A DNA stretch of 62,893 nucleotides. It comes from Laspinema olomoucense D3a (GTDB lineage: Bacteria > Cyanobacteriota > Cyanobacteriia > Cyanobacteriales > Laspinemataceae). Each line of letters opens with the position of its first letter. The first letter of the stretch is position 1. The DNA is taken from NCBI RefSeq assembly GCF_025370815.1, contig NZ_JAMXFB010000041.1, one strand, 5' to 3'. The position numbers were made by a program, and so were the translations under genes. Shown here piece after piece: positions 14,364 through 37,754 of this stretch. The notes below the pieces were generated by a model. It was not told the DNA's origin. It worked only from the letters and a program-made list of their open reading frames with translations, and ran no database searches.

Positions 14364-14364
14364 C

Positions 14365-15297
14365 CTATCCTGCTTTGATTTTCCCCTCCCGGAGAAATTC
14401 CTCGAAGGTGAGGCGACTGGGTAAGGCGGATTGAGCACCGGGTTTGGTTACTGTTAAGGCACCAGCGGCAGCCCCCCATCTGACAGCTTCGGGGAAGGGC
14501 AATCCCTGGGCGATCGCCACTGCCAATGCGCCATTAAAGGCATCCCCTGCCGCTACGGTATCCACGGCTTCCACCTCAAAGGCAGGCACAAAAAACTGCT
14601 CCTCTCCCCTAGCACAAAGCACCCCTTTTGCTCCTAACTTGGCGATCGCTGTTTTGACTCCGCGTTTTTGTAATTCGGTGAGGGCTTCCCGGGCTGTTTC
14701 TATATCTCTCACGGCAATTCCGGTGAGGATACTCAGTTCGGTTTCATTGGGGGTAATGATATCAATCAGGGAATACAATTCTGGGGGTAGTTCTCGGGCG
14801 GGGGCTGGGTCTAAAATAACTGGAATTCCGGCATTTTGAGCTTTTTTAGCTGCTGCCAGAACGGAGGATAGGGGAATTTCTAATTGTAATAATAATGCTG
14901 CCGCATCGGGTAATAAATCAGTGAGGCGATCGCAGTCTGACTCATTGACGCGATCGTTTGCCCCGGGGACAATCACAATGGTATTTTCTCCCGTATCTTC
15001 GACGGCGATCGTGGCAATTCCGGAAGCCGTGTTTTTATCAATGAAGATGCGATCGCACTTCACCCCGGATTGTTGCAAACTCTCCAGGAGTTCCTGTCCA
15101 AAACTATCCCCCCCCACCCGTCCAATCATAAATGTTGTCATCCCCAATTTCGCAGCAGCAACCGCTTGATTTGCACCTTTCCCACCGGATGCAGTAAAAA
15201 AGCTAATTCCCCTTAAAGTTTCACCGGGTTTCGGCAGACGGTGGGTGCGGGTGACTAAATCCAGATTGATACTACCGAACACCAGAATATTATTCAT
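14365..15297 (-). CDS. rbsK: Ribokinase (PfkB-family sugar kinase)
   Basis: N-terminal ILVFGSINLDLV. GGKGANQAVAAAKLG. C-terminal AAGDAFNGALAVAIAQG anion-hole/ATP motif. Confidence 0.8.
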   Translation of the reverse strand: MNNILVFGSINLDLVTRTHRLPKPGETLRGISFFTASGGKGANQAVAAAKLGMTTFMIGRVGGDSFGQELLESLQQSGVKCDRIFIDKNTASGIATIAVEDTGENTIVIVPGANDRVNESDCDRLTDLLPDAAALLLQLEIPLSSVLAAAKKAQNAGIPVILDPAPARELPPELYSLIDIITPNETELSILTGIAVRDIETAREALTELQKRGVKTAIAKLGAKGVLCARGEEQFFVPAFEVEAVDTVAAGDAFNGALAVAIAQGLPFPEAVRWGAAAGALTVTKPGAQSALPSRLTFEEFLREGKIKAG

Positions 15298-15357
15298 CGT
15301 TTCCCTTTCCCTTCACCTAGACCACTAATATTTTAGCATTAAGCCTGTCCCTTGATT

Positions 15358-15855
15358 TTAAATTGAATTCTCTTCTTGGCCTTGGAACAACTCTAATAAA
15401 AACTTTTGAGACTTCTTAGCCTCTGGAAAAAATGCAATTCTGGGTAACGCTAAACCCAAAATTAACATTCCCATCGGAATTAAAAAGGCCAGATTAAAAA
15501 TTTCCTTGAATAGGGCTTCTCCCAGAATCATCAAGGCTACTACTGCAAGCATAATCAGCCATAAAGACATAAAAATAATCACAAAAGGGTGCAGTTTTAT
15601 TTCTATTTTGATTTGACTGCCTCTACCGTGGGCCTGAATTTGACCTTCAATTTCAGGTAAAAAAGAATTGCGGTTGTAGATAACTCGGGAAATCTTAAAA
15701 GAGTGTTCGGCAATTTGTCCCTGGTACGGTTTTTTCGACCTACGCCAACGGAACTGGATTGGGTTGGAGGTAGGTGTCACCACTTCACTTAATTTTTTGA
15801 GAACCTCTTCGGGACTCAGATAAGTCGTCATCGTAAACCGTTTAGAAGGAAACAT
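15358..15855 (-). CDS. Paralog 1 of a tandem three-gene family: ~160-aa protein with N-terminal soluble domain and C-terminal double TM hairpin
   Basis: Clearly homologous to the ORFs at 16035-16517 and 16604-17089 (MFPSKRFTMTTYLSPEEV..YQGQIAEHSFKISRVIYNRNSFLPEIEGQI..). Two C-terminal hydrophobic helices. Confidence 0.6.
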   Translation of the reverse strand: MFPSKRFTMTTYLSPEEVLKKLSEVVTPTSNPIQFRWRRSKKPYQGQIAEHSFKISRVIYNRNSFLPEIEGQIQAHGRGSQIKIEIKLHPFVIIFMSLWLIMLAVVALMILGEALFKEIFNLAFLIPMGMLILGLALPRIAFFPEAKKSQKFLLELFQGQEENSI

Positions 15856-17132: not shown

Positions 17133-17205
17133 TAGAGCCATTAATACCCAATCCGGTTGTGATAGATCTATAAATACCCCACCCGATCGGGTGCGGGTAT
17201 TTATT
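17133..17205. repeat. Partial copy of the interspersed hairpin repeat family (aatccggttgtgatagatctataaatacccacccgatcgggtgcgggta)
   Basis: Matches the elements at 57321-57447 and 58745-58872 over the cggaatccggttgtaatagatccataaaaacccgcaccc...ggtgggt module. Confidence 0.55.
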
Positions 17206-18998
17206 TAGTCCAAGCCCCTATCTTCCAGCATCCCCCGGAATTTGTGTTTGCGGGCGTGGATTTGTAGCAATTCTTGACGATAAGTTTTCCAGCGGGCCCA
17301 CTGCTCTTTTTGAATATAAGCTGCCCGCACTTTTTTCAACCAGTCGATCGCCTGATTATAGAATTCAGATTTTTTGCGATCTAAAATCGATTCGGCAAGG
17401 GGTTGCGCCGTTTCAATCACCCAGTCTGGACGGTGTTTAATCGCTGCATCCATGACCCGATGCACCAACTCTATCTCATAGGAACCAAAGCCTTCTACGG
17501 CGGCGATCGCCTCATCAATTAACCCTTCACTTAGGAAAATATCTACTTTAACCTCAGTTTTGTTCCAAATTTTATGTTCCCTCAGAGAATTTAATAAATT
17601 GGGCTGGTATTTGAACCAATTTTCAGCGGCTAATTCTTTTATTTTAAAATAATCCCTCGAAGTAGGGTTATCGTAAAAAGCGAATTTTCTCGCCTCCAGT
17701 TCTACCTCAGTATTTCCTAATTCTTCCGCTAAATCAGCGGTCCAACTGGCCAGTTTATATTGGGAATCTCCCCGTAATTTTAGCCCCATTACCCCGACTT
17801 CCAGGGCTGGGCTAACTTCCCCATTACTGCGTAAGGTTTGCCCCAGGGATAAGGCTTCTTCCATTGTTTTCATTTGGGTCCGGGCGGCTTCCATTGCTTC
17901 CGTAGTTCGTCCTAAACTGCCCAACATGGTAAGATATTGTTTTATTTTGCCTTGGGCTTTAGCCAGGTTCAAATACTCCTGATATCGCTCTTGCCGATCC
18001 AGAATTTTTAAGCGAATTAATACCAAATCCGGGGAAGCATTGGGGGAAGAATTTTCCGCTATTCCTGGTTCGGATAGGGTTCCTTGGAGGGCTTGTACCA
18101 AATGCGGTTCATCCCATCCTTCGCTGAGGGATTCTAAGCTGAGGGGAAATTCGGTACTCCACTCCTCTTGGAGGATTTTTAAGCGCGATCGCCACTGTTC
18201 CACTTCACGGGAACTAAGGGATTCGCTGAGAATCGCTTCGGCGATCGCCTCATCCACTGCTGTGACAATTTCATCGGACTCAATCCCATACTGTTCCACC
18301 CGGTCCCAATCGGCTGCACAAGCTGAGGCAATAGCTTCTAACACGATTAAAGCATTATAACTTTCCCCAATTTCTATTAATCCTTGAATATTATCAATTA
18401 AATCTAACAACTCCTCGGTTACCGGGTCATCTTCACCGTCTAAGCTTTCAAAATACCGCATCCCTTCATATAAAATATCCCGCGCCTGCTGACGAAAAGG
18501 AGCCGGATTGATAGGGGAAGGACGCTGATTATTGGGTGATTGTATTGGACTGATTATTTCATTATTTAAGGTAATGTAATAGTCAATTTCATCAATAATT
18601 TCGGGTCTTTGTTTAACTAACTCTTGCACTAGACCTTGGATTTGGGCCCGGTTGAGCTGAGCGAGCAATTGCTCCAAAGTCGGACGCTCTTGAATAGTTT
18701 CTGGTTGCCGCATTACCACCAATAAGGTAGCGACAATATGTTCACACCATTCAGACTTATCATCAGCACAAGAACAGGTCACCGAGGTCAAACAGCCCTG
18801 CTCAAACCCCACCCGAACCCGATAGGGTTGGTCTGCATTATCCATCACTTCGGCATTGAGTAAATTGCCTCGCCGAGTCACGGAGGTTACATTGCCCGCT
18901 TCATAATCCGACTGGCCTTTGCTAAACAATGCAGGGGCAGATTTCTGGCGAATGAGGCGATCGGTCAAGTCAGGAGTTTTAGACATAAAGCAATCCAA
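17205..18998 (-). CDS. SWIM zinc-finger domain protein
   Basis: CSCADDKSEWCEHIV matches the SWIM CxC-Xn-CxH signature near the N-terminus. Remainder helical and acidic, no family recognised. Confidence 0.6.
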   Translation of the reverse strand: MDCFMSKTPDLTDRLIRQKSAPALFSKGQSDYEAGNVTSVTRRGNLLNAEVMDNADQPYRVRVGFEQGCLTSVTCSCADDKSEWCEHIVATLLVVMRQPETIQERPTLEQLLAQLNRAQIQGLVQELVKQRPEIIDEIDYYITLNNEIISPIQSPNNQRPSPINPAPFRQQARDILYEGMRYFESLDGEDDPVTEELLDLIDNIQGLIEIGESYNALIVLEAIASACAADWDRVEQYGIESDEIVTAVDEAIAEAILSESLSSREVEQWRSRLKILQEEWSTEFPLSLESLSEGWDEPHLVQALQGTLSEPGIAENSSPNASPDLVLIRLKILDRQERYQEYLNLAKAQGKIKQYLTMLGSLGRTTEAMEAARTQMKTMEEALSLGQTLRSNGEVSPALEVGVMGLKLRGDSQYKLASWTADLAEELGNTEVELEARKFAFYDNPTSRDYFKIKELAAENWFKYQPNLLNSLREHKIWNKTEVKVDIFLSEGLIDEAIAAVEGFGSYEIELVHRVMDAAIKHRPDWVIETAQPLAESILDRKKSEFYNQAIDWLKKVRAAYIQKEQWARWKTYRQELLQIHARKHKFRGMLEDRGLD

Positions 18999-19154
18999 TC
19001 TGATAGAAAATAGAGAAATTGACGGGTTGTTAAAGAATCAAGATAGCGTATCCTCATCCGTTTACAAAACAGGAATCGCCATTTTCTCTAATTCCTATCA
19101 TATCCAGGGATGCTCTAACTCGCAAGACTCATTTACAGATATTCACAACTACTA

Positions 19155-21833
19155 TTATTCAATGGGTTGACACTCAGGCGATCGCAACCCGGGAAAAGAA
19201 ACGCTTCCCTCGGGTATCGCCGCCATTAACTCAATTGTTCCTTGCGCATTCCGTCGCCAAGCAGTCGCTTCCTGGAGTGGGGAAGACGGATTTGTAGAGG
19301 AAGGGGTGCGACGGCGAGGAGGTTCAACGGTAACCGTTTCCCCCTCTAAATCTTGGAAAAAGTTGCGTAAATCATGCCAAATCGGTTGGGTTTGGAGGGG
19401 TTGAGTCGGGTCCGTGGGTAATCCTCCTCGTCCCGAAATGGTAAAAGAATTCTCATCGGATAAGGCACAACCCACAAAGTTATTATCCCTCGCTTGACCC
19501 AGCATTTCGGGTAATTCTACTAATCCCGTGGAGGGATTAACATCAGGGGTATTAATTGTGACACTGCCGCTAAACTCCGCCCCGAGTTCGGAGGTGGCGG
19601 TAATATCACTTTGTGGCGTGAGTTCTGTGCGAAAATTAGTCCCCAAGATGCCTTGGGCGGCGATCGCCACGCGACCCCCAAAACTGGCGCTGGAATTCGC
19701 TGTAATATCACTATTCTCTACGGCAACTAACGTATCTGTAGCGATCGCAATATTCCCTCCCGTCCCACTCCCACTGGCATTTGTGGTAATTCCCCCTTGG
19801 TTACGCAACCGAATATCCCGCGATTCAATAAAAATATTCGCTTGATCCCCTTGCACCGTTTCTGCGGCGATCGCAGCATTGTTAACCACAATCTGCCGCC
19901 CCACAATTTCAATATTCCCGGCGATTCCCGTCTTCTCACTACTGGCCGAAATGATGGCGCGATCGCCTAAAATTAACTGTCCCGTCTGCAAGCGCATCGT
20001 CCCCGCATTCCCCGTCTCTGTAGAAGCAGCAAAAATTCCTGTAGGAAATAGGATTCCAGACTCATCCGGGAAGAAAAATCCCCCCTCTATTGCCGGAACT
20101 GCACCGGATAAAACAATCGCCTCAGTTGCCAAAATCTCCAAATTTCCCCCATCTCCAGCGCCAAATGTACCCACACTAATCTGTGCGCCATCCCGCAAAA
20201 TCAACCTCGGAGTTTCAATCCGTAAATTATCTCCATTCCCTTCTCCCAAAGTATCACTAAAAACAATCACCGGATTGCCAACGCGATCGACTCCCCCAAA
20301 TTCCATCACTTCCGTTGCCTGCAAAAGCACAGGACCGCCATCCCCCGCCTCAAAGGTGGTACTACCCACATTCGCCCCATTCAGAATCCGTAATACTGCC
20401 GTCTCAATCTCTAAACTTCCCGCATTTCCCATTGCCTCCGGGTCTACGGTACTTTCCGCCCCTGTGGGCCTTAGCACATCGTTACTGGAATTCAATCCAT
20501 CAAAAACCACCGACTCCAAGGCGCGAATTACCAGGGGTGCACCATTTCCCTGACCCCGGGTTCCCGTGATCATGCCTGCCCCATCTTTGACCAACACAGA
20601 ACCCGCCTGAATCTCAATGCCGCCTGCATTTCCGACCCCTTCGGGTGCTACATCTGCCGAGGCGATGGTGATGAAATCTTCTCTCCCCTGTCCATCGAAT
20701 ACCACGGACTCGCGGGCGGTAATTTGCAGTTTACCGCCATCCCCTTCCCCGGATGTGCTAGTAGAAATTATCGCACTTGTGGCGGAAAAGGTGGTAGTAT
20801 TCAAAGTGATGTTACCGCCATCGCCAACCCCGTTGGGTTGGACTTCATTGGCGATCGCACTCTCTTCCGTTAAAACAATGTTTCCCGTGGTATCAATTTC
20901 GATATCTCCTGCTTGTACACCCGGTGTTCCTGACCCTGGCGCAATCCCCCCGCGAATCTCAGACTGCCCTGAAATCAGCAGATTCTCGACTTGAATGGCG
21001 ATACTTCCACCCCCTGCACCGGCCACATCCACTCGCGCCCCATTCGTGAGATGGAGTGGCGATCGCTCGACGGTTTCCGGCAGTTTGAGTGCGTTTCCCC
21101 CTGGTAATTCCACCACTCCCGCCTCGGAGATTCCCCCCAAAGTGACAGTTCCACCGGGAACCCGTAATTGTCCCCCCTCCAGGGTAATCTCACCCCCAAC
21201 TAGGGTTAAGGTTTGATTCGGCAGCACAGTTAGAACCGAATCCCTCACAAAAATGCTCTCGGGATTGGGTCCATATTGTAACCCGATGGGGACATTAACG
21301 CTCAAAATAGGGGATGAATCAGGGTTTGTGGCGCTAAAGGCGCGATCGTCAGGAAATAACACACTGTGGGCGGTACTCCCGACAAAAGAACCGCCTAGAT
21401 TCAGGGTGGCATTCGGTCCGAAGGCAATGCCACTGGGATTAATTAAAAATAAATTCGCGCTGCCATTAGCGGCGATCGCCCCATCAATTTGGGACAGTTT
21501 GCCTCCGGTAATGCGAGTAATAATATTAGCGATAGTGGTGGAATTATTAAAAAGTGCAGCAGTTCCCGTCGGGATAGAAAATTCCTGGAAACTATGGAAC
21601 AAATTACTACCGGCAGCAGTTCCCCCCTCAATCGTGAGGGTATTGCCGTTGATCTGAACCCCCGAAGGATTCGGAAGGGTATTATCCGGTATAACCTGCG
21701 CCTGGAGGGATTTGTGTCCTAACCCTCCGTCCAAAAATAGCAAGGCACTCATCAAGCTAAAAATAGATAGATAATAATGACCCCAATACATCACGGTTTG
21801 GCAACTCCTGACTCTACTATTTTTCTTGATCAT
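19155..21833 (-). CDS. Two-partner-secretion (TpsA) exoprotein: filamentous-hemagglutinin N-terminal TPS domain followed by Gly/Thr-rich beta-helical repeats
   Basis: N-terminal signal/TM. NPSGVQINGNTLTIEGGTAAGSNLFHSFQEFSIPTGTAALFNN is the canonical haemagglutination-activity (TPS) domain motif. Long G/T/N-rich beta-helix-like repeats. Confidence 0.75.
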   Translation of the reverse strand: MIKKNSRVRSCQTVMYWGHYYLSIFSLMSALLFLDGGLGHKSLQAQVIPDNTLPNPSGVQINGNTLTIEGGTAAGSNLFHSFQEFSIPTGTAALFNNSTTIANIITRITGGKLSQIDGAIAANGSANLFLINPSGIAFGPNATLNLGGSFVGSTAHSVLFPDDRAFSATNPDSSPILSVNVPIGLQYGPNPESIFVRDSVLTVLPNQTLTLVGGEITLEGGQLRVPGGTVTLGGISEAGVVELPGGNALKLPETVERSPLHLTNGARVDVAGAGGGSIAIQVENLLISGQSEIRGGIAPGSGTPGVQAGDIEIDTTGNIVLTEESAIANEVQPNGVGDGGNITLNTTTFSATSAIISTSTSGEGDGGKLQITARESVVFDGQGREDFITIASADVAPEGVGNAGGIEIQAGSVLVKDGAGMITGTRGQGNGAPLVIRALESVVFDGLNSSNDVLRPTGAESTVDPEAMGNAGSLEIETAVLRILNGANVGSTTFEAGDGGPVLLQATEVMEFGGVDRVGNPVIVFSDTLGEGNGDNLRIETPRLILRDGAQISVGTFGAGDGGNLEILATEAIVLSGAVPAIEGGFFFPDESGILFPTGIFAASTETGNAGTMRLQTGQLILGDRAIISASSEKTGIAGNIEIVGRQIVVNNAAIAAETVQGDQANIFIESRDIRLRNQGGITTNASGSGTGGNIAIATDTLVAVENSDITANSSASFGGRVAIAAQGILGTNFRTELTPQSDITATSELGAEFSGSVTINTPDVNPSTGLVELPEMLGQARDNNFVGCALSDENSFTISGRGGLPTDPTQPLQTQPIWHDLRNFFQDLEGETVTVEPPRRRTPSSTNPSSPLQEATAWRRNAQGTIELMAAIPEGSVSFPGLRSPECQPIE

Positions 21834-24440: not shown

Positions 24441-26612
24441 ATGAAAGTCACTGTAGAACCTCCTTTTTTAACCATTAATCATGGCAGCATATTTATGGTG
24501 TCCGAACTGGACGGACAAATTCAATGCGACAAGTTTCAAGGAATTTTTGCTGATGATACCCGGTTTTTAAGTGAATATGCCTGTTTTATAGACAATACGT
24601 CCTGGATGCGGCTCACCTCGTCAGTCACGCGCTATTACGCCAGCAAAATTTATTTAACTAATCCCGCCATTTCCAGCCAAAATGGAGAAATTGCTAAAGG
24701 CGCGCTATCCTTAACCATCGCTCGGACTGCCGAACATGGAATTCATGAAGACCTAGATATTACCAATCATAGCCTCAAAGCCGTAAAGTTTCATTTGGAT
24801 TTAGAGATTAATTCCGACTTTGCGGATATTTTTGAAGTCCAATCCGGGGAATTCGTGCGCCGAGGTCAAATTGAAACCGACTGGGATAAAAAAGAGTATA
24901 AACTTCGCCATACCTATAATAATGGAGATTTTTATCGATGCATGATCGCCCATTGGGATAACCTGACATCACCCCCGCATTATGCGAATGGTCGAGTTAC
25001 CTTTCAAATTGAATTAGAAGCGGGTGCAAGTTGGCACGCTTGCTGTTGCTATACCCTGATTGATAACGAACACTGCCACAAACCCATTTCTTTGTGCTAT
25101 GACGAAGCCATCAAATCCGATGTAAATACCGAATTGCAACAGTTGCAGCGGCAGTGGCAGGATGTCTGCACAACGATCGCCACCTCAAACGAGGATCTCA
25201 AGCGACTGTACTGCCAGAGTCTCGAAGACATGAGTGCGATGCGCCTCTATGACTACGATATGGCTCCCGATGTGTGGCTACCCGCAGCAGGAGTTCCCAA
25301 ATATGTGGCGCTATTTGGTCGCGATAGCTTAACTGCCAGCTTGCAAAATCAGATTATTCATCCCGGGTTTGCCCGAGGTGCACTCCAAAAATTAGGGCAG
25401 TTTCAAGCGAAGGAATATAGTGACTGGCAGGATGCACAACCGGGAAAAATCCTCCATGAACTGCGTCAGGGGGAGTTGGTTTACTTGAAAAAAAGTCCGC
25501 GATCGCCTTATTATGGGGCTGCCGATACCACCCCTCTCTATACAATAGTCCTCCACGAAACTTGGAAATGGTTAGGGGATGATTCTCTCTTAAAAGATTA
25601 CCGCGATGTCGCCCTCCGCTGTTTAGACTGGATCGATCGCTATGGAGATCTAGACAAAGATGGCTTCCAGGAATATCAAGTGCGCTCAGAAAAAGGCATC
25701 GAAAACCAATGCTGGAAAGACTCCGGAGATTCAATCGTCTATCCCGATGGATCACAAGTCAAATCCCCCAAAGCCCTATGTGAACTTCAAGGCTATGTCT
25801 TTGATGCCTGGATGCGGATGGCGGAAGTCTTTGAGGCACTCGGTGAGAAGGATAGCGCCACCGAATTACAAGGTAAAGCCGAAAAACTGCGCGTGCAATT
25901 TGAAGAACGCTTTTGGTGTGAAGACTTGGGATTTTATGCCTTAACCCTAGATCCAGATAAACAGCCGGTCCGTTCGATCGCCTCAAATCCGGGTCATTGC
26001 CTCTGGAGTGGCATCGTCAGCCCAGAACGCGCTCAACGGGTGGTTAAACGGCTGCTAGAACCCGATATGTCCAGTGGTTGGGGAATTCGCACCTTGTCCT
26101 CAAATCATCCCTCTTTTAACCCCTTTTCCTATCATCTCGGGTCCGTCTGGCCCCATGATAACGGCATCATTGCCCTCGGCTTCAAACGCTATGGCTCCCA
26201 TGAAGCCGTTGCAAGCGTAGCAGCGGATATTTTCGAGACAGCCAGCCATTTCGCCTGCTATCAGATTCCCGAAGTCTATGCCGGAACAAAGCGCCAGATA
26301 GGAGCATTTCCCGTCCCCTATATTGAAGCAAATATACCCCAAGCTTGGGCCGCCGGTTCCGTCTTTCACCTAATCCAGGCCCTATTGGGATTACAAGCGA
26401 ATGCACCCCACGGCTGCTTATATGTTGATCCCTATTTGCCCGATTGGTTACCCGACTTGACCCTGTGCGGTTTAGAGGTGGGGGATTCCTCCATAGACTT
26501 ACGGTTTTGGCGCGAAGGCGATCGCACTTGCTGGGATGCCTCGGTCCGTAGTGGCACCATTTCGGTCCAGCAAAAAGCATGGCAACCTTGGGCGATCCCT
26601 GTATCGGTATAG
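24441..26612 (+). CDS. Amylo-alpha-1,6-glucosidase / glycogen-debranching-enzyme-like protein (six-hairpin glycosidase C-terminal domain)
   Basis: 723 aa. Architecture and motifs (GRDSLTASLQ, WKDSGDSIVYPDG, HCLWSGI, GIRTLSSNHPSFNPFSYHLGSVWPHDN) resemble the GDE_C family. Confidence 0.55.
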   Translation: MKVTVEPPFLTINHGSIFMVSELDGQIQCDKFQGIFADDTRFLSEYACFIDNTSWMRLTSSVTRYYASKIYLTNPAISSQNGEIAKGALSLTIARTAEHGIHEDLDITNHSLKAVKFHLDLEINSDFADIFEVQSGEFVRRGQIETDWDKKEYKLRHTYNNGDFYRCMIAHWDNLTSPPHYANGRVTFQIELEAGASWHACCCYTLIDNEHCHKPISLCYDEAIKSDVNTELQQLQRQWQDVCTTIATSNEDLKRLYCQSLEDMSAMRLYDYDMAPDVWLPAAGVPKYVALFGRDSLTASLQNQIIHPGFARGALQKLGQFQAKEYSDWQDAQPGKILHELRQGELVYLKKSPRSPYYGAADTTPLYTIVLHETWKWLGDDSLLKDYRDVALRCLDWIDRYGDLDKDGFQEYQVRSEKGIENQCWKDSGDSIVYPDGSQVKSPKALCELQGYVFDAWMRMAEVFEALGEKDSATELQGKAEKLRVQFEERFWCEDLGFYALTLDPDKQPVRSIASNPGHCLWSGIVSPERAQRVVKRLLEPDMSSGWGIRTLSSNHPSFNPFSYHLGSVWPHDNGIIALGFKRYGSHEAVASVAADIFETASHFACYQIPEVYAGTKRQIGAFPVPYIEANIPQAWAAGSVFHLIQALLGLQANAPHGCLYVDPYLPDWLPDLTLCGLEVGDSSIDLRFWREGDRTCWDASVRSGTISVQQKAWQPWAIPVSV

Positions 26613-26749
26613 TCATCCCAACTCCTAAGCTAGATCAACCCCAGGCGGAAAACCTGTGGGTTGATTATCTATCTTAATCGTCTCTATTCTTCTAAAACTT
26701 AGTATAAAATATCGCCCTTGAAGTGCGCCCATCCTCAATTAATCGCACT

Positions 26750-27388
26750 TTACAGAATTTCTTCACCGCCACATAACGACAAAATTGTATTAATAAAAGC
26801 CTTGAGTTCTGAACAAACCTCGATAGACTCCATCAAATCGTTTTCCTCTAAAATCTTTAAACCATCCCGAGTTTTACTATAACTTCTGGGGGATTTGCCT
26901 TGCTCAAAAATTTCTTGAATATGTTTCGAGGGCGGTTTCTGATGATTCACTTTCTCCGGATTGCCGCTAGGAACAGATTTATTATGTTTGGCTAACTTTT
27001 GAATGGTCGGCCAAAACGGTAAAAGCCATGCCTCAAAATCATGTTGTGCAGCGTGGGGATAAAAGTTAGGATTGTTTCCTACCCATTCTTTCATTTTTTG
27101 TTTAGCATCGGCTGCATTTTTAAAATCCTCGGTTCCAGTATAAACGTCGGTTAAGGCAATCACTGCATCATAAGCATCCTTGCCACTCAGCAGCTTTTCT
27201 ACGTCACTTTTAAGTTTGTCTTTTTTCGGAATCCGTCCATGATAAGGTTTGGGCTGTAATTTAGGCATTTTTCCAGGTAAACGGGAATTCAGAAAGCGCC
27301 GCAAACTCGGTATCAAGGCTTTTTCAGTTGCGCCTTCAACTAAAATAGCAATTTTCACGATCGCCCTCCGATGATATTCATCGCCCAC
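26750..27388 (-). CDS. DUF4276-like protein (partner of the upstream ATPase)
   Basis: N-terminal VKIAILVEGATEKALIPSLRRFL matches the DUF4276 signature (ILVEGxTE). About 210 aa. Overlaps the upstream ATPase gene by 34 bp. Confidence 0.5.
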   Translation of the reverse strand: MGDEYHRRAIVKIAILVEGATEKALIPSLRRFLNSRLPGKMPKLQPKPYHGRIPKKDKLKSDVEKLLSGKDAYDAVIALTDVYTGTEDFKNAADAKQKMKEWVGNNPNFYPHAAQHDFEAWLLPFWPTIQKLAKHNKSVPSGNPEKVNHQKPPSKHIQEIFEQGKSPRSYSKTRDGLKILEENDLMESIEVCSELKAFINTILSLCGGEEIL

Positions 27389-28500
27389 AGTTCATCTAAA
27401 CTATACTCTTCCAACCATTTCTCTAAATCTAAAGAATCCGCCCAAGTCATGGTTGTGAAACCCTCTTCATCTGCATCGCATACCAGCACTTCGTCTGGTT
27501 GCAAAAATCGGATCAGGCGATCAGAATGGGTGGCAACAATCAGTTGAGTTCGTTTCGATGCTTCTCGCATCACATCCACCAGCAATCGCAACAATTCCGG
27601 ATGCAAGCTGACTTCCGGTTCATCGATAAGCGTTACAGCAGTTAAATTCGGACTTTGCAGTAGGGTGACTAACCACAAAAACCGCACCGTCCCCTCGGAA
27701 AGTTGATGCATATAAAGGGGATGCGAAAAATTTTTCTCCTTCCAAGTCAATGCCAATGTGCCTGCTGCTACTGGGGGAAAACTCAAGCGTTCAAAACTAG
27801 GAAAGGCAGCAGACAAAGTATCGCTTATCAGTTCAAATCGATCCGGGTCTGTTTCCCGTAAATTATAAAGGCAGGAAACTAAATCTTCCCCCCGATTTCC
27901 GGGTAAAGTTGCGGGACGCATCGCTTGCGGTAATCGCACGGGACTGGTAGGCGATAAATTCAATTCCCAAGCTCGATAAAAGCTACAGGAGGCTAATTGC
28001 TTCCGCACCGCTTCCGCTTCTTGGTACATTTTAGGAACTTGTGAAAGGGAGGTTTCTAACGGATTATGTTCCCAATTTGGACGGACCGGAACCTGATTGT
28101 TATTAGCAAAATATTGAACATTTAAACCGCTGGAATTTATGTAAGTAAACACCAAAGGCGATCTAGTAAGAGATTCCTGCTCTATTTCATAAAATTGTTG
28201 GCCTTTAATGTCTAATTTTAAAAAATAGTTAAACTGTCCATATTTTTCTAAAAAAACTGATGGAACCACGCGAAAACTATCAGCCTGATCTCGCGTCAAT
28301 ATATCACCCAGCCCCCCAAATTCAGAAATTTTTGACTGTAACTGACCTTTTGCAGATTCTGATAAAAGGGAGAACATTTCCAAAAAAGATGTCTTCCCCA
28401 CTCCGTTGGCCCCGATGATGACCGTTAAAGGTCTCATCTCGACTTGGACTGAGCGTAAGCGACGGAAACCGTAAATCTCTATTTTTTCAAAACCATTCAT
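27355..28500 (-). CDS. AAA/ABC-type ATPase (AAA_15/AAA_21-like, OLD/RloA-like N-terminal ATPase)
   Basis: N-terminal EIYGFRRL...TVIIGANGVGKTSFLE Walker A. Late Walker B/D-loop LIDEPEVSLHPEL. ATHSDRLI H-loop. 381 aa. Confidence 0.65.
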   Translation of the reverse strand: MNGFEKIEIYGFRRLRSVQVEMRPLTVIIGANGVGKTSFLEMFSLLSESAKGQLQSKISEFGGLGDILTRDQADSFRVVPSVFLEKYGQFNYFLKLDIKGQQFYEIEQESLTRSPLVFTYINSSGLNVQYFANNNQVPVRPNWEHNPLETSLSQVPKMYQEAEAVRKQLASCSFYRAWELNLSPTSPVRLPQAMRPATLPGNRGEDLVSCLYNLRETDPDRFELISDTLSAAFPSFERLSFPPVAAGTLALTWKEKNFSHPLYMHQLSEGTVRFLWLVTLLQSPNLTAVTLIDEPEVSLHPELLRLLVDVMREASKRTQLIVATHSDRLIRFLQPDEVLVCDADEEGFTTMTWADSLDLEKWLEEYSLDELWAMNIIGGRS

Positions 28501-28776
28501 AATAGGTTGGTTAGTGGGTCATGTTTAAGATCCCTTTTACATTTGCAAAATCTTACCACATTCATCGGGTTGTTGTAAAATTTTTATGTTTTTGTAAAGA
28601 GTGGCAGGAGGTTGACAAAATTTGGTCCGATTAATTTAGATGGTTAACCCCTTGATTTAGGCCCGATCGCCCCCTTACTATCTCCTCAATTCTCCCATAC
28701 TGAATACCAAATCTCTGTACCTCCCTAGTGAAAATTCACTCTACAATTATAAGAAACCTATAGGACGATCGCAGAA

Positions 28777-30180
28777 ATGTTTCAAGCAACCCGCCGACGG
28801 TTAGCGATTTGGTATGCAGCACTCACCGCAGTGTTGCTGCTGGTGTTTGCGACGGGATTTTATGTGTATGTGCGGAGTACCTTAATCGATCGCATTGATG
28901 ACACCCTCAAGCACGTTGTGGAAGTGGTGGAACGCTCGCTGGCGATCGATGAAAACCCCAACACCGGCCAATATACCGTAAATGTTGTCGCCAGTTTCCG
29001 CAACAATGCCAAAACCGTCGAAGATGACCATATCGATTTAGAATGGTTTAGTCCCACGGGGGAATTATTGTGGTCTACCCTTTGGGAACCCTTAGAAATT
29101 CCCCTGCACCCGAAAAAGAATGGGGAAACGGTACAACTTTCGGGAGGACAACTGCTGAGGCAATTTACCGATCGCGTAGAAATTGGACGGCAAGTGGTAG
29201 GATATTTGCGAGTCAGTCATCCCTGGTTTGAAGTGACCAAACCGATTCGGCAATTAATTATTGATTTAAGTTTGGGAACCTCCCTCATGGCAATTGCCAT
29301 TAGTGCGATCGCCTGGTTACTGTCAGGATTAGCCATGAAACCTGTGCGGGATTCTTACCAGCGTCTCAAACAGTTTACCTCCGATGCCTCCCATGAACTC
29401 AGAAACCCGATCGCCACGATTCAAACAAATGTGCAAGTAGCCCTGGCGGACCCGGAATTAGATTCACCCATCCATCGCCAGCAATTACAGTTAGTCGAAC
29501 GCTTGACGCGCCGTATGGGACGATTGGTGGATGATTTGCTCTTTTTAGCGCGACAAGATAGCGGCATAGTGAAAGTGAGGAAACAACCTGTGCCAATGGA
29601 TGCCTTATTGATGGAAGTGATGGAGGAACAAGAGGCGATCGCCGCCGAAAAAGGCATTGAATTAGTATTAGAAATTATTGATCCGCCCGATAGCGGCAAT
29701 CACGCCCTCTCCCCCCTTATGGATCCAGAAACTGAACCGGGACTGGATTTTACCATCCCCGGAGATTGGGACCAACTGGCGCGACTGTTTACGAATTTAG
29801 TCAGTAATGGATTGCAATACACGGCGAAAGGGGGCCAAATTGCCATCACCTTAGAATGTAGCGGGGTGAGCAATCGCCCGAGTGCCAATAGCGGTGTCCA
29901 AGTTACGGTGAAAGATAGCGGAATCGGCATTCCGGCAGAGTCGGTGCCTCATATTTTTGATCGCTTTTATCGAGTGGACCCGGCGCGGAGTCATGAACCT
30001 CACCAGTCGCCGGAATGGGGTTCTACGGGGTCTGGATTGGGACTGGCGATCGTCCGGGCGATCGTGGAAAATCATCACGGTTGGATTCGGGTAGACAGTC
30101 AGCTTAATCTCGGCACTACCGTTAGCGTTATCCTTCCGCTCTCCAAACCCGACCCAGAAAAACCGCATCCCGAGGCATAA
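28777..30180 (+). CDS. Sensor histidine kinase (two TM helices flanking an extracytoplasmic domain, then HisKA and HATPase_c)
   Basis: H-box FTSDASHELRNPIATI. N-box LVSNGLQYT. G-boxes VKDSGIGIP / GSGLGLAIV. No cognate response regulator adjacent. Confidence 0.8.
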   Translation: MFQATRRRLAIWYAALTAVLLLVFATGFYVYVRSTLIDRIDDTLKHVVEVVERSLAIDENPNTGQYTVNVVASFRNNAKTVEDDHIDLEWFSPTGELLWSTLWEPLEIPLHPKKNGETVQLSGGQLLRQFTDRVEIGRQVVGYLRVSHPWFEVTKPIRQLIIDLSLGTSLMAIAISAIAWLLSGLAMKPVRDSYQRLKQFTSDASHELRNPIATIQTNVQVALADPELDSPIHRQQLQLVERLTRRMGRLVDDLLFLARQDSGIVKVRKQPVPMDALLMEVMEEQEAIAAEKGIELVLEIIDPPDSGNHALSPLMDPETEPGLDFTIPGDWDQLARLFTNLVSNGLQYTAKGGQIAITLECSGVSNRPSANSGVQVTVKDSGIGIPAESVPHIFDRFYRVDPARSHEPHQSPEWGSTGSGLGLAIVRAIVENHHGWIRVDSQLNLGTTVSVILPLSKPDPEKPHPEA

Positions 30181-35693: not shown

Positions 35694-36920
35694 ATGGCAT
35701 TCGGCAACTTTGACCACGGAAACGAGTTTCGCGATCGCAACCCCACTCAAGATCGGGGATTGCTGGGAGCGGGTTGGCGACCCTTATCCCGGGAATTTGA
35801 TTGGAGTTATTTTTTCCATTTGGCCTCTAAAGACCCCTGGGAATTAGCCCACAAAACCTTAGATTTTAGTAGTGATATTGCCGATGCGTTAGGTCGTCAA
35901 AATTTTACGTGGTGGGCGAATATTTTAAATGTGTTTTCGGAATATACCCGAGGCGATTTCAATGAGTTTTGGGATTACATTACTCCCCCACCGGCGGGAC
36001 CCAATTCTCACAGCACAGATATGATCACGGCAGAAACCCCCGTGGTTCAATTCGTCAGCCGGGAGAGCATCCCCATTGATTACGTCCTCAAACGCCTCCA
36101 AGAGATTACCGTTGGCAAAGTCCTGGACCTCTTAGGTCGTCCTGATTTAATTACCCAATATTACCTAGACCGGCATTTTTATTATCCCATCGAGCGGTTT
36201 ACGACTTGGGAGCGCATTCAAACAATGGGGATGGTTTATGCCTATTGGAAAAAACAGAACATTTGGCTGCAAATCGACCCCCTGGGGCGCATTCAAAATA
36301 CAGGCCGCAACCAATTTCAATATACTCTGATTGCCGAGGATTTGCGATCGCTGATTAACAAAGCCACCTACAATCTAGCAGTCATGCTCAGTGGCTATCA
36401 AAGCCGTGTGGGTCAAGTTCAGAGCGAGTTTCCGATTCGCACCTTTCCTGCTGATATTCAAGGGTTTAGCGATCGCGTCCAAGAGGCCATCTTTACCCAA
36501 CCTCAACTCGCCGTCCTCGTTCATGGCGCACCGGGAACAGGCAAAACAGCTTGGACCCAAGCCGTTGCCAAAGAAATTCTAGTTCCCTTGGGATATGTGA
36601 TTTTTATTCTGGACCATGATGCCGTAGAAAATTTCGTTCCCCCCAGTTATTTAGAAAAAATTTGCATCATTATTAATGAAGCAGATAACCTCGCCCAAGA
36701 CCGGGGAAGCGAAGCGGCCCAACACAGTAATAAAACTGAACATATCCTCAGCTTACTCGATGGCACTTTATATCAAAGTGTCTTAGAACCCGAGGGGATT
36801 AACGCTCAACAAAAGCTGGTGTTTTTAATGACTTGTAACACCACCGAACGATTAGATCCGGCTGTATTACGCAAAGGACGGATTGATTTAATCTATGAAT
36901 TTGTAACTCAATTTGTTTAA
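35694..36920 (+). CDS. Classic-clade AAA+ ATPase with an uncharacterised ~260-aa N-terminal domain
   Basis: Walker A LVHGAPGTGKTAW. Walker B IIINEADNL. Sensor-2-like LRKGRIDLIYEF (resembles the RPGRFD motif of classic AAA proteins). Confidence 0.65.
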   Translation: MAFGNFDHGNEFRDRNPTQDRGLLGAGWRPLSREFDWSYFFHLASKDPWELAHKTLDFSSDIADALGRQNFTWWANILNVFSEYTRGDFNEFWDYITPPPAGPNSHSTDMITAETPVVQFVSRESIPIDYVLKRLQEITVGKVLDLLGRPDLITQYYLDRHFYYPIERFTTWERIQTMGMVYAYWKKQNIWLQIDPLGRIQNTGRNQFQYTLIAEDLRSLINKATYNLAVMLSGYQSRVGQVQSEFPIRTFPADIQGFSDRVQEAIFTQPQLAVLVHGAPGTGKTAWTQAVAKEILVPLGYVIFILDHDAVENFVPPSYLEKICIIINEADNLAQDRGSEAAQHSNKTEHILSLLDGTLYQSVLEPEGINAQQKLVFLMTCNTTERLDPAVLRKGRIDLIYEFVTQFV

Positions 36921-37024
36921 GGAATTTTACGGGAATGATAAAATGAAAAAGTGGGGCGATCGGCCCCACTTCTTCTACATTTTTAGAATAAAAACCAGTT
37001 TCCGGTTACGTCTTATCGAGTTAC

Positions 37025-37498
37025 TTATTCTTTGGGAGAAACCTCGATATCAGGATTCGTGCAAAAATCTATGGCAGTCGCCATGCCTTCTGTCCCATCT
37101 TCACTGCGAGTAAAGACATCATAGAGACACGGGTCTCCATCTTTCCAGTCTTCATCGGCCCACTCAAATTGATCCTTACCCCCCGGTTCGATGGGCTCGA
37201 CTAGGATACTGTCGCCCCATGCGGTCTCGTCAGTATCATCGACATAAAGTTCGGTAATCGGGCTACCTGTATTATTAGTAACCGTAAATTGATATTGAGC
37301 GCTGCTCTCCTCAGTCTCCTCTTGAGCACTGCTCTCCTCAGTCTCCTCAGCTTCCTCAGCGCGGACGACTGTAGTAGTCACCAGAGGTAGGCATAATGCC
37401 AACCCAATGAGCAGAGAACGGAAGGACAGATTAACCATAAAGTTTGAGTTCATTATACACCCTCCTTGAGGGCCTACTGAAAATGTGTTAAATGACAT
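37025..37498 (-). CDS. Small secreted acidic protein with EETEESSAQ repeats
   Basis: Signal peptide (LIGLALCLPLVTTTVVRA). Duplicated acidic motif. No family recognised. Confidence 0.4.
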   Translation of the reverse strand: MSFNTFSVGPQGGCIMNSNFMVNLSFRSLLIGLALCLPLVTTTVVRAEEAEETEESSAQEETEESSAQYQFTVTNNTGSPITELYVDDTDETAWGDSILVEPIEPGGKDQFEWADEDWKDGDPCLYDVFTRSEDGTEGMATAIDFCTNPDIEVSPKE

Positions 37499-37754
37499 TC
37501 TATCATTCCTTTTCCATTTGTCAATCCCCTTTTCTAAAAAACAGTCAGGCTGGAAAGAAAGGATTTGGATCCTGCCCTCAGCTAAAAGCCAAAATCAGAA
37601 ATGCCCCAAAGTGTGCTTCGCAATACTTTTCCACAGAAATATTATTCCAGGAACACCCAGGAGGCTATCGGGGAACTATAATTTCTGTAGAACTTCAATA
37701 ATTTTTTTATCCCTTTCTCAGGTTTTTACTTATTAACGGAATTCAAAAAAATTA

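What the first reader, a model, noticed from the sequence alone, without database searches (positions are those of the whole stretch)
26750..28500. Overlapping AAA-type ATPase + DUF4276-like gene pair: candidate two-gene phage-defence / abortive-infection module
A 381-aa protein has an ABC/OLD-like N-terminal P-loop (GANGVGKTSF) and late D-loop/H-loop. It overlaps by 34 bp a 212-aa protein whose N-terminus (ILVEGATEKALIP) matches the DUF4276 signature. ATPase+DUF4276 pairs recur in defence islands, and to my recollection correspond to AbiL-like (AbiLi/AbiLii) two-gene systems. Here the pair is inserted between a glycoside hydrolase gene and an orphan histidine kinase, bounded by ~140- and ~275-bp intergenic regions, which fits an acquired cassette.
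Basis: partly seen in the sequence, partly recalled or inferred. Interest (0 to 1): 0.7.

Follow-up and report, generated by a model that had tools for sequence, protein, structure and literature searches.

The report
ATPase plus TOPRIM-nuclease defence-candidate gene pair
This is a real two-gene operon in the cyanobacterium Laspinema olomoucense, an ABC-type ATPase followed by a small DUF4276/TOPRIM nuclease, that belongs to the already catalogued candidate anti-phage family HEC-01, so it is a new member of a known kind and its function here is untested.

Summary
The gene pair exists as described. The 381-aa protein (27355..28500, minus strand) is an ABC-type ATPase (Pfam AAA_21, 3.6e-39). 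The downstream protein is DUF4276 (3.8e-32). One detail needs correcting. The second gene most likely starts at the GTG at 27358, giving 202 aa and a 4-bp GTGA overlap behind a GGAGGG site, not 212 aa and 34 bp. Ten other loci, seven read from gene calls and three from aligned sequence, place the start at this ATGA/GTGA junction.

The pair stands alone and has its own conserved promoter-like element and low GC. It occurs next to unrelated genes in at least eight lineages. Within Laspinema it sits at the same site in 5 of 5 genomes, with housekeeping-like dN/dS of about 0.1. I found no copies on phages or plasmids.

The most likely function is an ATPase-gated nuclease defence module, but this is unproven. 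Published tests of HEC-01 representatives gave one negative and one positive result.

The parts
28550..28579 (-). Promoter-like element upstream of the ATPase gene: TTTACA, 18 nt, TG-n-TAAGAT, an extended -10.
   Evidence: Consensus scan. The block GATGAATGTGGTAA[A/G]ATTT that contains the -10 is invariant in 5 Laspinema-clade loci. This holds even in L002, where a different gene lies upstream, and in L001, where the distal spacer has diverged. The scan alone is not above chance: 6 sites found against 4.6 expected.
27355..28500 (-). Gene A: 381-aa ABC-type ATPase of the AAA_21/AAA_15 group, HEC-01A type. Walker A is at 28413..28390, signature LSEGT at 27702..27688, Walker B LIDEPE at 27630..27613 and H-loop His at 27528..27526.
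   Evidence: An identical protein is annotated 'AAA family ATPase [Laspinema olomoucense]' on a 62893-bp contig.
27364..27369 (-). GGAGGG Shine-Dalgarno-like site for gene B. It lies inside the 3' end of gene A, 5 nt upstream of the GTG start.
   Evidence: GGAGG is present at this position in 8 of the 10 other loci read. The two Nostoc loci, L022 and L023, have GGTGG.
26750..27358 (-). Gene B: 202-aa DUF4276 protein with a TOPRIM fold of the OLD type, HEC-01B type. The GTG start overlaps the stop codon of gene A (GTGA, 27358..27355). The Toprim Glu8 codon is at 27337..27335 and the Asp71 codon at 27148..27146.
26636..26663 (-). Stable hairpin (CAACCC-A-CAGG / CCTG-GGGTTG) in the 137-bp spacer between the convergent DUF4276 and glycogen-debranching-enzyme genes. 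It is a possible shared terminator, but there is no U-tract on the minus strand.
   Evidence: Fold of 26615..26752: -36.5 kcal/mol, z = -2.87, and 0 of 200 shuffles fold as well. The terminator scan did not call it.

Best explanation
The locus is a stand-alone, translationally coupled two-gene operon of the HEC-01 type. In effect it is a 'split OLD-like' system. Gene A encodes a compact 381-aa ABC ATPase. Gene B encodes a 202-aa DUF4276 protein whose fold and conserved acidic residues are those of an OLD-family TOPRIM metal-dependent nuclease.

Shown here: family membership, the fold of protein B, conservation of catalytic-type residues in both proteins, operon structure, and the evolutionary pattern.

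Inferred by analogy with PARIS (AriA/AriB), AbiL, Gabija/OLD and MADS Mad3-Mad4: the ATPase oligomer binds and restrains, or licenses, the nuclease. It senses a cue of infection or foreign DNA through ATP-dependent conformational change. The nuclease then cuts nucleic acid and stops phage propagation, possibly at the cost of the infected cell. The substrate is unknown. Because the second DxD aspartate is missing, nicking or RNA/tRNA cleavage is as plausible as processive DNA degradation.

The Laspinema lineage acquired the cassette horizontally, before the sampled species diverged, and has kept it under purifying selection.
For: Family:
- PADLOC HEC-01A 1.9e-72 (protein residues 4-380, profile 6-361 of 363) and HEC-01B 1.3e-18 (residues 7-205, profile 9-226 of 230).
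- Pfam AAA_21 3.6e-39 and DUF4276 3.8e-32.

Protein B:
- The AF2 model has pLDDT 93.9 and pTM 0.90.
- Across 36 diverse relatives (30-59% identity), E8, G9, E12 and D71 are invariant and E109 and K162 are at least 90% conserved.
- E8 ends strand 1, E12 starts helix 1, D71 ends strand 3, and E109 starts the first helix after strand 4.
- This matches the positions and spacing of the BpOLD metal ligands E400/E404, D455 and T506-x-E508 and the catalytic Lys (PMC6755086).

Protein A:
- The key residues of Walker A (G30, N32, G35, K36), a candidate Q-loop Gln (Q154), the signature (S268, G270), Walker B (D293, E294, E296) and the H-loop (H325) are invariant or at least 90% conserved in 67 homologues.

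Operon:
- The 4-bp ATGA/GTGA overlap behind a GGAGG-like site recurs in the other loci examined.
- There is a conserved upstream promoter-like block.

Mobility:
- The same pair at 48-75% identity lies next to unrelated genes in Nostoc, Sphaerospermopsis, Ozemobacter, Acidobacteria, Thiomargarita, Hydrogenedentes and Desulfococcaceae. Toxin-antitoxin or RM genes are nearby in 4 of the 8 contexts.
- GC and GC3 are low.

Literature:
- HEC-01 is described as an ABC ATPase plus TOPRIM with a conserved metal site (10.1101/2024.01.29.577857).
- One cold-seep HEC-01 representative protected E. coli B against at least one of phages T4, T5 and T7 (PMC12881386).
- Individual deletions of the MADS genes mad2-4 (mad3 and mad4 correspond to the ATPase and the DUF4276 protein) each reduced defence in P. 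aeruginosa (10.1101/2023.03.30.534895; PMC12065111).
- PARIS and AbiL supply the sensor-ATPase plus TOPRIM-effector model (PMC11464382; PMC13064643).
Against: - No experiment exists for this locus or for any cyanobacterial member.
- The HEC-01 representative tested by the family's discoverers protected against none of the phages tried.
- The subfamily does not behave like a typical fast-turnover defence gene. It is at the same site in 5 of 5 Laspinema-clade genomes. Its dN/dS of 0.09-0.14 equals that of the flanking SOD, GDE and HK genes at 0.07-0.13. Identity is 48-75% across phyla.
- It is not in a defence island.
- It has no relatives in IMG/VR (pattern scan), INPHARED phages, PLSDB plasmids or PHROGs.
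- The TOPRIM DxD motif is reduced to D71-V-Y, and the third position is never acidic in the family.
- The ATPase model is poor (pLDDT 60.7), so its structural matches to PtuA and OLD (TM 0.35-0.48) only support an ABC fold.
- Physical interaction between A and B, the trigger and the substrate are all inferred.
- The residue equivalences with BpOLD rest on spacing and secondary-structure position, not on a superposition I could inspect.
Confidence: 0.55

Rival explanations
1. The pair is a domesticated, housekeeping-like nucleic-acid maintenance module. An ATP-driven ABC (Rad50/RecF/SbcC-like) protein would work with a TOPRIM nuclease in DNA repair, in resolving aberrant DNA structures, or in RNA processing in the manner of RNase M5. 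Phage defence would not be its role.
For: - The site is conserved in 5 of 5 Laspinema-clade genomes.
- dN/dS is 0.09-0.14, the same as housekeeping neighbours.
- Sequence conservation across phyla is unusually high.
- There are no homologues in phage, plasmid or viral collections or in PHROGs.
- There is no defence-island context.
- One HEC-01 representative gave no phage protection.
- In Ozemobacter the pair sits next to a DinB-type polymerase gene.
Against: - Neighbours differ in every lineage examined outside Laspinema, and the pair is absent next to the GDE gene in three more distant cyanobacteria. That is the pattern of horizontal transfer, not of a core function.
- GC is low.
- The closest characterised relatives are all defence proteins: HEC-01, MADS3-4, AbiL, PARIS, OLD, Gabija and Septu.
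- One HEC-01 representative did protect against phage.
Confidence: 0.2
2. The pair is a selfish toxin-antitoxin-like addiction cassette. The DUF4276 nuclease would be the toxin and the ATPase its neutraliser. The pair would persist by post-segregational killing without giving the host any net benefit against phage.
For: - The pair is compact, translationally coupled and self-promoted.
- It has spread horizontally across phyla and often lies beside toxin-antitoxin genes: TacA/TacT, HicA, Zeta and ParE.
- PARIS has been described as behaving like a type II toxin-antitoxin system, with AriB toxic and AriA neutralising (PMC13064643).
Against: - It is chromosomal and stably vertical within Laspinema.
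- No plasmid copies were found among 72,556 plasmids, whereas addiction modules are typically plasmid-rich.
- Both genes are under strong purifying selection.
- Toxin-antitoxin behaviour and defence are not mutually exclusive, so this rival overlaps the main explanation.
Confidence: 0.1
3. The pair is a bona fide AbiL (AbiLi/AbiLii) system, or a detached fragment of a larger MADS, Hma or type I RM operon that cannot function alone.
For: - The AbiLi model hits the ATPase at 3.3e-26 and the mad3 model at 1.3e-21.
- NCBIfam MAD3 scores 3.1e-25.
- Mad4 is a DUF4276 protein (PMC12065111).
- HEC-01 was discovered embedded in Hma systems.
Against: - AbiLii scores E = 0.022 and RloB is below the Pfam cutoff.
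- The MAD3 score is 89 bits against an equivalog cutoff of 420, and no curated NCBIfam model matches protein B (only RimP at E 0.023, 14.5 bits against a cutoff of 375).
- No methylase, helicase or other MADS, Hma or RM gene flanks the pair in the window or in any of the 8 contexts read. The nearest is an MmeI-type RM gene 4.4 kb away in one context.
- Intact, constrained genes in all lineages argue against a decaying fragment.
Confidence: 0.05

Closest known systems
HEC-01 (Hma-embedded candidate 01; PADLOC-DB v2; Payne et al., bioRxiv 10.1101/2024.01.29.577857)
   Same: It is a two-gene ABC ATPase plus small TOPRIM protein. Both proteins match HEC-01A and HEC-01B profiles over nearly their full length (1.9e-72 and 1.3e-18). 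The TOPRIM metal-site residues are conserved.
   Different: HEC-01 was defined from copies embedded inside Hma systems. This subfamily stands alone among housekeeping genes. The B protein matches only one of the HEC-01B sub-models well. Function is unproven: one representative was negative and one positive.
MADS Mad3-Mad4 (methylation-associated defence system, P. aeruginosa)
   Same: Mad3 is an AAA_15/21 ABC ATPase and Mad4 is a DUF4276 protein. Individual deletions of mad2-4 each reduced defence. The PADLOC mad3 model hits the ATPase at 1.3e-21 over its full length.
   Different: MADS is an 8-gene methylation-based operon in which MAD6-8 are mandatory, and none of these is present here. The NCBIfam MAD3 equivalog scores 89 bits against a cutoff of 420, and protein B has no hit to any curated model.
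AbiL (AbiLi/AbiLii, Lactococcus)
   Same: It is a two-gene ABC ATPase plus TOPRIM-fold small protein, proposed to act in abortive infection. AbiLi hits the ATPase at 3.3e-26. An RloB-like phage protein is the only viral structural match of protein B, with TM 0.52.
   Different: AbiLii belongs to the RloB family (PF13707), not DUF4276. Here AbiLii scores E = 0.022 and RloB 16.8 bits against a cutoff of 31.5. The AbiLi profile is matched only over positions 74-262 of 326.
PARIS (AriA/AriB)
   Different: AriB is a DUF4435-family protein listed at 305 residues (chain 8v46_D) and 35 kDa, and AriA is 53-55 kDa. Here the proteins are 202 and 381 aa. No AriB model hit was obtained. PARIS is often carried by phages or satellites, whereas this family was not found in viral or plasmid collections.
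OLD-family nucleases (class 1 P2 Old / Thermus OLD; class 2 BpOLD / Gabija GajA)
   Different: OLD proteins are single polypeptides, whereas here the two domains are separate, translationally coupled genes. The second Asp of DxD is absent. There is no UvrD-like helicase partner of the GajB type.

Membership tests
HEC-01 (PADLOC candidate system) | A protein matching a HEC-01A (ABC ATPase) profile. | tested here: met
   PDLC04175 scores 1.9e-72 (242 bits), protein residues 4-380 against profile 6-361 of 363. Several other HEC-01A sub-models score between 5.6e-61 and 1e-30.
HEC-01 (PADLOC candidate system) | An adjacent protein matching a HEC-01B (TOPRIM) profile. | tested here: met
   PDLC04188 scores 1.3e-18 (65.5 bits), residues 7-205 against profile 9-226 of 230. 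The genes are adjacent and overlap by 4 bp.
HEC-01 (PADLOC candidate system) | Demonstrated anti-phage activity. | not testable with these tools
   The literature is mixed: no protection in the discoverers' assay, and protection by a cold-seep representative against at least one of T4, T5 and T7. Nothing has been tested for this subfamily.
DUF4276 (PF14103) / Toprim superfamily | Pfam score above the gathering cutoff. | tested here: met
   112.5 bits against a cutoff of 30.2, profile 1-191 of 192.
DUF4276 (PF14103) / Toprim superfamily | Toprim fold with the conserved Glu after strand 1. | tested here: met
DUF4276 (PF14103) / Toprim superfamily | DxD motif after strand 3. | tested here: not met
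   Only the first Asp (D71) is present and invariant. The motif reads D-V-Y, and the third position is Y/H/L/V/K/R/F/C/G/I in 36 relatives, never D or E. A paper on Menshen-associated DUF4276 domains reports a DxD (PMC12065111), so this clade differs.
ABC ATPase of the AAA_15/AAA_21 (OLD/PARIS/Septu-type) group | Walker A, signature-like motif, Walker B, D-loop and H-loop in ABC order, and Pfam AAA_21 or AAA_15 above cutoff. | tested here: met
   The motifs read GANGVGKT, LSEGT, LIDEPE, SLHP and ATHS. The key motif residues are invariant or at least 90% conserved in 67 homologues. AAA_21 scores 136 bits against 27 and AAA_15 82 bits against 32. The structural check is weak: model pLDDT 60.7, with PtuA and OLD matches at TM below 0.5.
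AbiL (AbiLi/AbiLii) | Second protein belongs to the AbiLii / RloB family. | tested here: not met
   PADLOC AbiLii scores E = 0.022 (13.4 bits). Pfam RloB scores 16.8 bits against a cutoff of 31.5.
AbiL (AbiLi/AbiLii) | First protein matches AbiLi. | tested here: inconclusive
   AbiLi scores 3.3e-26, but over profile positions 74-262 of 326 only and far below the HEC-01A scores. This is a shared ABC core rather than specific membership.
PARIS (AriA/AriB) | Second protein is an AriB (DUF4435 TOPRIM). | tested here: not met
MADS (methylation-associated defence system) | MAD6-8 are mandatory, with a methylase and other mad genes in the same operon. | tested here: not met
   The flanking genes are a glycogen-debranching-type hydrolase and a histidine kinase, and no mad-like genes lie within about 10 kb. 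The MADS model definition is from 10.1101/2023.03.30.534895.
MADS (methylation-associated defence system) | The ATPase is a MAD3 equivalog. | tested here: not met
   NF047739 scores 89.2 bits against an equivalog cutoff of 420.
OLD family nuclease (classes 1-2) | ATPase and Toprim domains in one polypeptide. | tested here: not met
   There are two separate ORFs with a stop codon between them, conserved as separate genes in all loci examined.

The most novel reading that the evidence does not exclude
This particular clade of ATPase+DUF4276 pairs has unusual properties. It is about 48-75% identical across at least eight bacterial phyla, always solitary and chromosomal, and not found on phages or plasmids. 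In Laspinema it is fixed at one site with housekeeping-level constraint, and its TOPRIM site lacks the second DxD aspartate. It may therefore not be a classical arms-race defence system. It could instead be a conserved surveillance or maintenance module with an invariant, host-side or universally conserved ligand, for example a one-metal nickase or RNase that an ABC ATPase gates in response to a generic stress or DNA/RNA-structure signal.
Probability: 0.18. Interest if true: 0.55.

Novelty: new member of a known kind. Interest (0 to 1): 0.3.

Why it matters
If the pair is active, it would be a cyanobacterial example of the split ABC-ATPase/TOPRIM ('OLD-like') defence architecture. It would be a compact 381 + 202 aa representative of HEC-01, a family that is very abundant in environmental genomes. 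HEC-01's activity is contested and its trigger, substrate and structure are unknown: no DUF4276 relative is detectable by sequence in the PDB. The high-confidence model and the conserved-residue map (E8, E12, D71, D/E107-x-E109, K162, with no second DxD Asp) give concrete mutational targets. The evolutionary pattern, fixed and constrained within a genus yet horizontally spread between phyla, is a useful caution against reading every ATPase+nuclease pair as a fast-turnover defence island gene. For genome annotation the practical result is modest. Both genes can be relabelled from 'AAA family ATPase / DUF4276 family protein' to 'HEC-01-type ABC ATPase / TOPRIM nuclease (candidate defence)'.

Tried and rejected
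- **Flanking repeats or mobile-element scars.** I looked for direct or inverted repeats around the cassette. There were no direct repeats, and only short imperfect inverted pairs (15 nt, 87%) that look like chance.
- **RNA elements.** Rfam gave no match at E <= 1 in 26000..29500.
- **Phage or plasmid carriage.** The IMG/VR pattern scan, tblastn against INPHARED phages and PLSDB plasmids, and PHROGs all gave nothing for DUF4276. Only generic ABC-ATPase PHROGs hit protein A.
- **Sequence relatives of DUF4276 in the PDB.** None were found; the best E-value was 0.67.
- **ATPase structure.** AF2 with 67 close homologues gave only pLDDT 60.7. The Foldseek matches to PtuA, retron effectors and OLD have TM below 0.5 and are used only as weak support.
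- **An 'empty site'.** I tried to find a relative that has the site without the pair. Three species-level relatives in the genome collection plus one Logan assembly all carry the pair, and more distant cyanobacteria lack GDE-HK synteny altogether.
- **Exact lookup of the 99%-identical L. olomoucense protein (P0001).** It was not on record.
- **AbiL, PARIS and MADS membership.** I considered and rejected each (see the membership tests).
- **Superposition with BpOLD.** I could not check the residue equivalences by superposition, because model coordinates are not exposed to the scripting tool.
Full report

Yes. The six-frame ORF list shows two minus-strand ORFs:
- 27355..28500, 381 aa, ATG start.
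- 26750..27388, 212 aa, GTG start.

They lie between a plus-strand 723-aa GDE-type glycoside hydrolase (24441..26612) and a plus-strand 467-aa HisKA/HATPase_c histidine kinase (28777..30180). The spacers are 137 and 276 bp.

The 381-aa protein has the ABC ATPase motif order:
- Walker A, GANGVGKT.
- Signature-like LSEGT.
- Walker B, LIDEPE.
- D-loop SLHP.
- H-loop ATHS.

It matches Pfam AAA_21 (3.6e-39, the whole 304-position profile) and AAA_15 (7.4e-23). The second protein matches DUF4276 at 3.8e-32 (112.5 bits against a cutoff of 30.2, profile 1-191 of 192). These scores are far beyond chance.

An identical ATPase is on record as 'AAA family ATPase [Laspinema olomoucense]' on a 62,893-bp contig. 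The window is therefore a contig of this filamentous cyanobacterium.

**2. A correction to the anatomy.**

The 34-bp overlap and the 212-aa length are artefacts of the first-start-codon rule.
- Ten codons into the ORF there is a GTG (27358) that overlaps the ATPase stop codon as GTGA. It is preceded at 5 nt by GGAGGG.
- Homologues are 198-208 aa long and start MKI/MRI.
- In eleven loci with gene calls the two genes overlap by exactly 4 bp.
- The junction sequence was read in ten loci. It is ATGA in Nostoc and Acidobacteria and GTGA in the Laspinema loci and Ozemobacter. GGAGG is kept at this position in 8 of the 10, and the two Nostoc loci have GGTGG.

Gene B is therefore 26750..27358 (202 aa) and is translationally coupled to gene A.

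About 50 nt upstream of the ATPase ATG lies the block GATGAATGTGGTAA(A/G)ATTT, which contains an extended -10-like TGnTAAGAT. It is invariant in five Laspinema-clade loci even where the sequence further upstream differs. The pair thus looks like a self-contained operon.

A stable hairpin sits in the 3' spacer (z = -2.87). No Rfam family and no flanking repeats were found.

**3. Which family?**

PADLOC-DB models give HEC-01A for the ATPase (1.9e-72, near full length, plus many other HEC-01A sub-models) and HEC-01B for the DUF4276 protein (1.3e-18, near full length). Other systems score much lower or fail:

| Model | Result |
|---|---|
| AbiLi | 3.3e-26, partial profile |
| AbiLii | E = 0.022 |
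| Pfam RloB | 16.8 bits, cutoff 31.5 |
| Pfam OLD-like_TOPRIM | 16.4 bits, cutoff 23.2 |
| AriB | no hit |
| NCBIfam MAD3 | 89 bits, equivalog cutoff 420 |
| Any curated NCBIfam model for protein B | none (only RimP, E 0.023, 14.5 bits against 375) |

The pair is a member of the candidate system HEC-01. HEC-01 was described by Payne et al. as an ABC ATPase plus TOPRIM protein found embedded in Hma systems (10.1101/2024.01.29.577857).

The wider kinship is documented in the literature:
- DUF4276 and RloB were recognised as Toprim-superfamily members, and Mad4 of MADS is a DUF4276 protein (PMC12065111).
- The PARIS paper groups AbiL and MADS3-4 with OLD, Gabija and PARIS as ABC-ATPase + TOPRIM systems (PMC11464382).

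**4. What the proteins look like.**

*Protein B.* AlphaFold2 on a 94-sequence alignment gave a confident model (pLDDT 93.9, pTM 0.90). It has four strand-helix units followed by a helical subdomain.

The only viral structural match is an RloB-like protein (TM 0.52). No solved structure is detectable by sequence (best E 0.67).

In 36 diverse relatives (30-59% identity) the invariant residues are E8, G9, E12, D71, P143 and C182. Conserved at 90% or more are T11, L69, A104, E109, W111, P134, E135, Y160, K162 and L175.

Mapped on the model:
- E8 ends strand 1.
- E12 opens helix 1.
- D71 ends strand 3.
- D/E107-x-E109 opens the first helix after strand 4.

In BpOLD the two-metal site is E400, E404, D455/D457 and T506-x-E508, with the catalytic K562 (PMC6755086). 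The spacing E/E+4, the first Asp and the x-E element are all reproduced, and K162 is a candidate for the lysine. This equivalence is inferred from spacing and secondary structure, because I could not inspect a superposition.

The second Asp of DxD is absent. The motif reads D-V-Y, and that position is never acidic in the family. In BpOLD, D457 contacts metal A only through water and single mutants are tolerated. The site may therefore still be active, but a nicking or RNA-cleaving activity is as plausible as processive DNA degradation.

*Protein A.* The key motif residues are invariant or nearly invariant in 67 homologues. The AF2 model is poor (pLDDT 60.7), with disordered inserts at 62-73, 143-156, 180-209 and 232-266. 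Its Foldseek matches to PtuA/retron effectors and Thermus OLD have TM below 0.5 and support only an ABC fold of the defence-associated AAA_15/21 group. The weak PDB sequence hits point the same way.

**5. Evolutionary behaviour.**

*Across phyla.* The DUF4276 search returned 3,588 proteins at E <= 1e-3. Library-wide there are 431 clusters at 50% identity with E <= 1e-3.

The clade containing this protein is strikingly conserved. DUF4276 is mostly 55-75% identical, and the ATPase 68-74%, in Nostoc, Microcoleus, Dolichospermum, Scytonema and Coleofasciculus. DUF4276 is similarly conserved in Acidobacteriota, Ca. Ozemobacter, Ca. Thiomargarita, Desulfococcaceae, Zixibacteria, Latescibacterota and Chloroflexota, and is 48% identical in Hydrogenedentes.

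In eight independent contexts the pair is always ATPase then DUF4276 with the 4-bp overlap. It is always solitary, and the neighbours are unrelated:

| Lineage | Neighbours |
|---|---|
| Laspinema | GDE and histidine kinase |
| Nostoc | ABC-transporter operons |
| Ozemobacter | DinB |
| Acidobacteria | peptidase M14 and an amino-acid permease |
| Thiomargarita | small ORFs, HicA and a Tse2 ADP-ribosyltransferase |
| Hydrogenedentes | DUF5060 |
| Desulfococcaceae | MlaA, with an MmeI-type RM gene 4.4 kb away |
| Sphaerospermopsis | TacA/TacT toxin-antitoxin pair |

That is the signature of a horizontally mobile cassette landing in variable regions, not of a defence island.

*In the window.* The DUF4276 gene has the lowest GC (39.7%) and GC3 (35.0%) of the 30 genes, about 2.7 sd below the mean. 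The ATPase is about 1.5 sd below.

*Within the Laspinema clade.* The order GSDH-SOD-GDE-[pair]-HK is kept in all five genomes available: the window, a Logan assembly, L. palackyanum, Oscillatoria sp. HE19RPO and one MAG. Protein identities of 90-94% are like those of the flanks. Pairwise dN/dS is 0.09-0.14 for the pair against 0.07-0.13 for SOD, GDE and HK, with similar dS. L. palackyanum has an extra 469-aa gene between the ATPase and the kinase. Three more distant cyanobacteria with a GDE orthologue have neither the pair nor the synteny.

The acquisition is therefore old, the genes are functional and constrained, and no presence/absence polymorphism is visible in the sample.

No relative was found in IMG/VR (pattern scan), INPHARED phages, PLSDB plasmids or PHROGs.

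**6. How it most likely works.**

Shown: an intact ABC ATPase and an OLD-type TOPRIM protein with a conserved metal-binding constellation are co-transcribed and translationally coupled, co-inherited in every lineage, and under purifying selection.

Inferred from characterised relatives:
- In PARIS, the AriA ATPase assembles a scaffold that holds AriB. Binding of a phage trigger releases the nuclease, which cleaves tRNA (PMC11464382; PMC13064643).
- OLD and GajA are ATP-regulated DNA nickases or nucleases (PMC6755086).
- Individual deletions of the MADS genes mad2-4, which include the ATPase and DUF4276 genes, each reduced defence.

The best-supported model is therefore an ATPase-gated nuclease that is unleashed by an infection cue and degrades or nicks nucleic acid. 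I put about 0.55 on this.

Experimental support for HEC-01 is thin and mixed. The discoverers' representative protected against nothing. A cold-seep representative protected E. coli B against at least one of T4, T5 and T7 (PMC12881386).

The housekeeping-like constraint, the fixed position and the absence from mobile-element collections keep two rivals alive: a non-defence maintenance role at about 0.2, and a pure addiction-module reading at about 0.1.

**7. Novelty and verdict.**

The family is already catalogued and detectable by PADLOC, so this is a new member of a known kind.

What remains of interest:
- DUF4276 proteins have no relative detectable by sequence in the PDB and no known substrate.
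- This clade lacks the second DxD aspartate.
- Its evolutionary behaviour is atypical for defence genes.

Interest is 0.3.

**8. Seen in passing (not followed up).**

- A bacterial Major Vault Protein homologue lies next to a CHAT-domain protein.
- A Tpt1/KptA RNA 2'-phosphotransferase lies near a ThiF-family gene and an AAA ATPase.
- There is a TPS-domain exoprotein.
- There is a 2,389-aa multi-PAS hybrid kinase.

Noticed in passing
window 3698..6346 (+), with 242..2278 (-) and 2309..3367 (-): An 882-aa bacterial homologue of the eukaryotic Major Vault Protein (Pfam Vault repeats 6e-67, MVP_shoulder 2e-55). It lies divergent from a 678-aa CHAT-domain (caspase-like) protein (9e-64) and a 352-aa protein with no Pfam match. 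Bacterial MVP homologues are uncommon, and the pairing with a CHAT protease may deserve its own look.
   Followed up: no
window 35694..39950 (+): A run of four genes: an AAA ATPase (408 aa), a Tpt1/KptA RNA 2'-phosphotransferase (182 aa, 4e-54), a 284-aa protein with no Pfam match, and a ThiF-family E1-like protein (213 aa). It could be an RNA-repair or conflict-related cluster.
   Followed up: no
L002 (Laspinema palackyanum) 14269..15678 (-): A 469-aa gene lies between the ATPase gene and the histidine kinase. It is absent from the window and from L001, L003 and L004, so the ATPase-kinase spacer is a variable spot.
   Followed up: partly
window 17205..21833 (-): An 892-aa exoprotein with a TPS secretion domain (2.4e-57), followed by a 597-aa protein with no Pfam hit. 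This may be a two-partner-secretion locus whose partner is atypical.
   Followed up: no
window 40676..47845 (+) and 48098..50200 (+): A 2,389-aa hybrid histidine kinase with dCache, HAMP, many PAS domains, GAF, HisKA/HATPase and a receiver domain. It is followed by a 700-aa receiver-kinase hybrid.
   Followed up: no
Its position next to the pair is conserved across Laspinema, but nothing links the two functionally.
   Followed up: partly
window 26750..27358 compared with L002: L. palackyanum is the closest relative for the GDE gene (dS 0.24) but the most distant for the DUF4276 gene (dS 0.40). This is a mild incongruence that could reflect recombination within the cassette.
   Followed up: no
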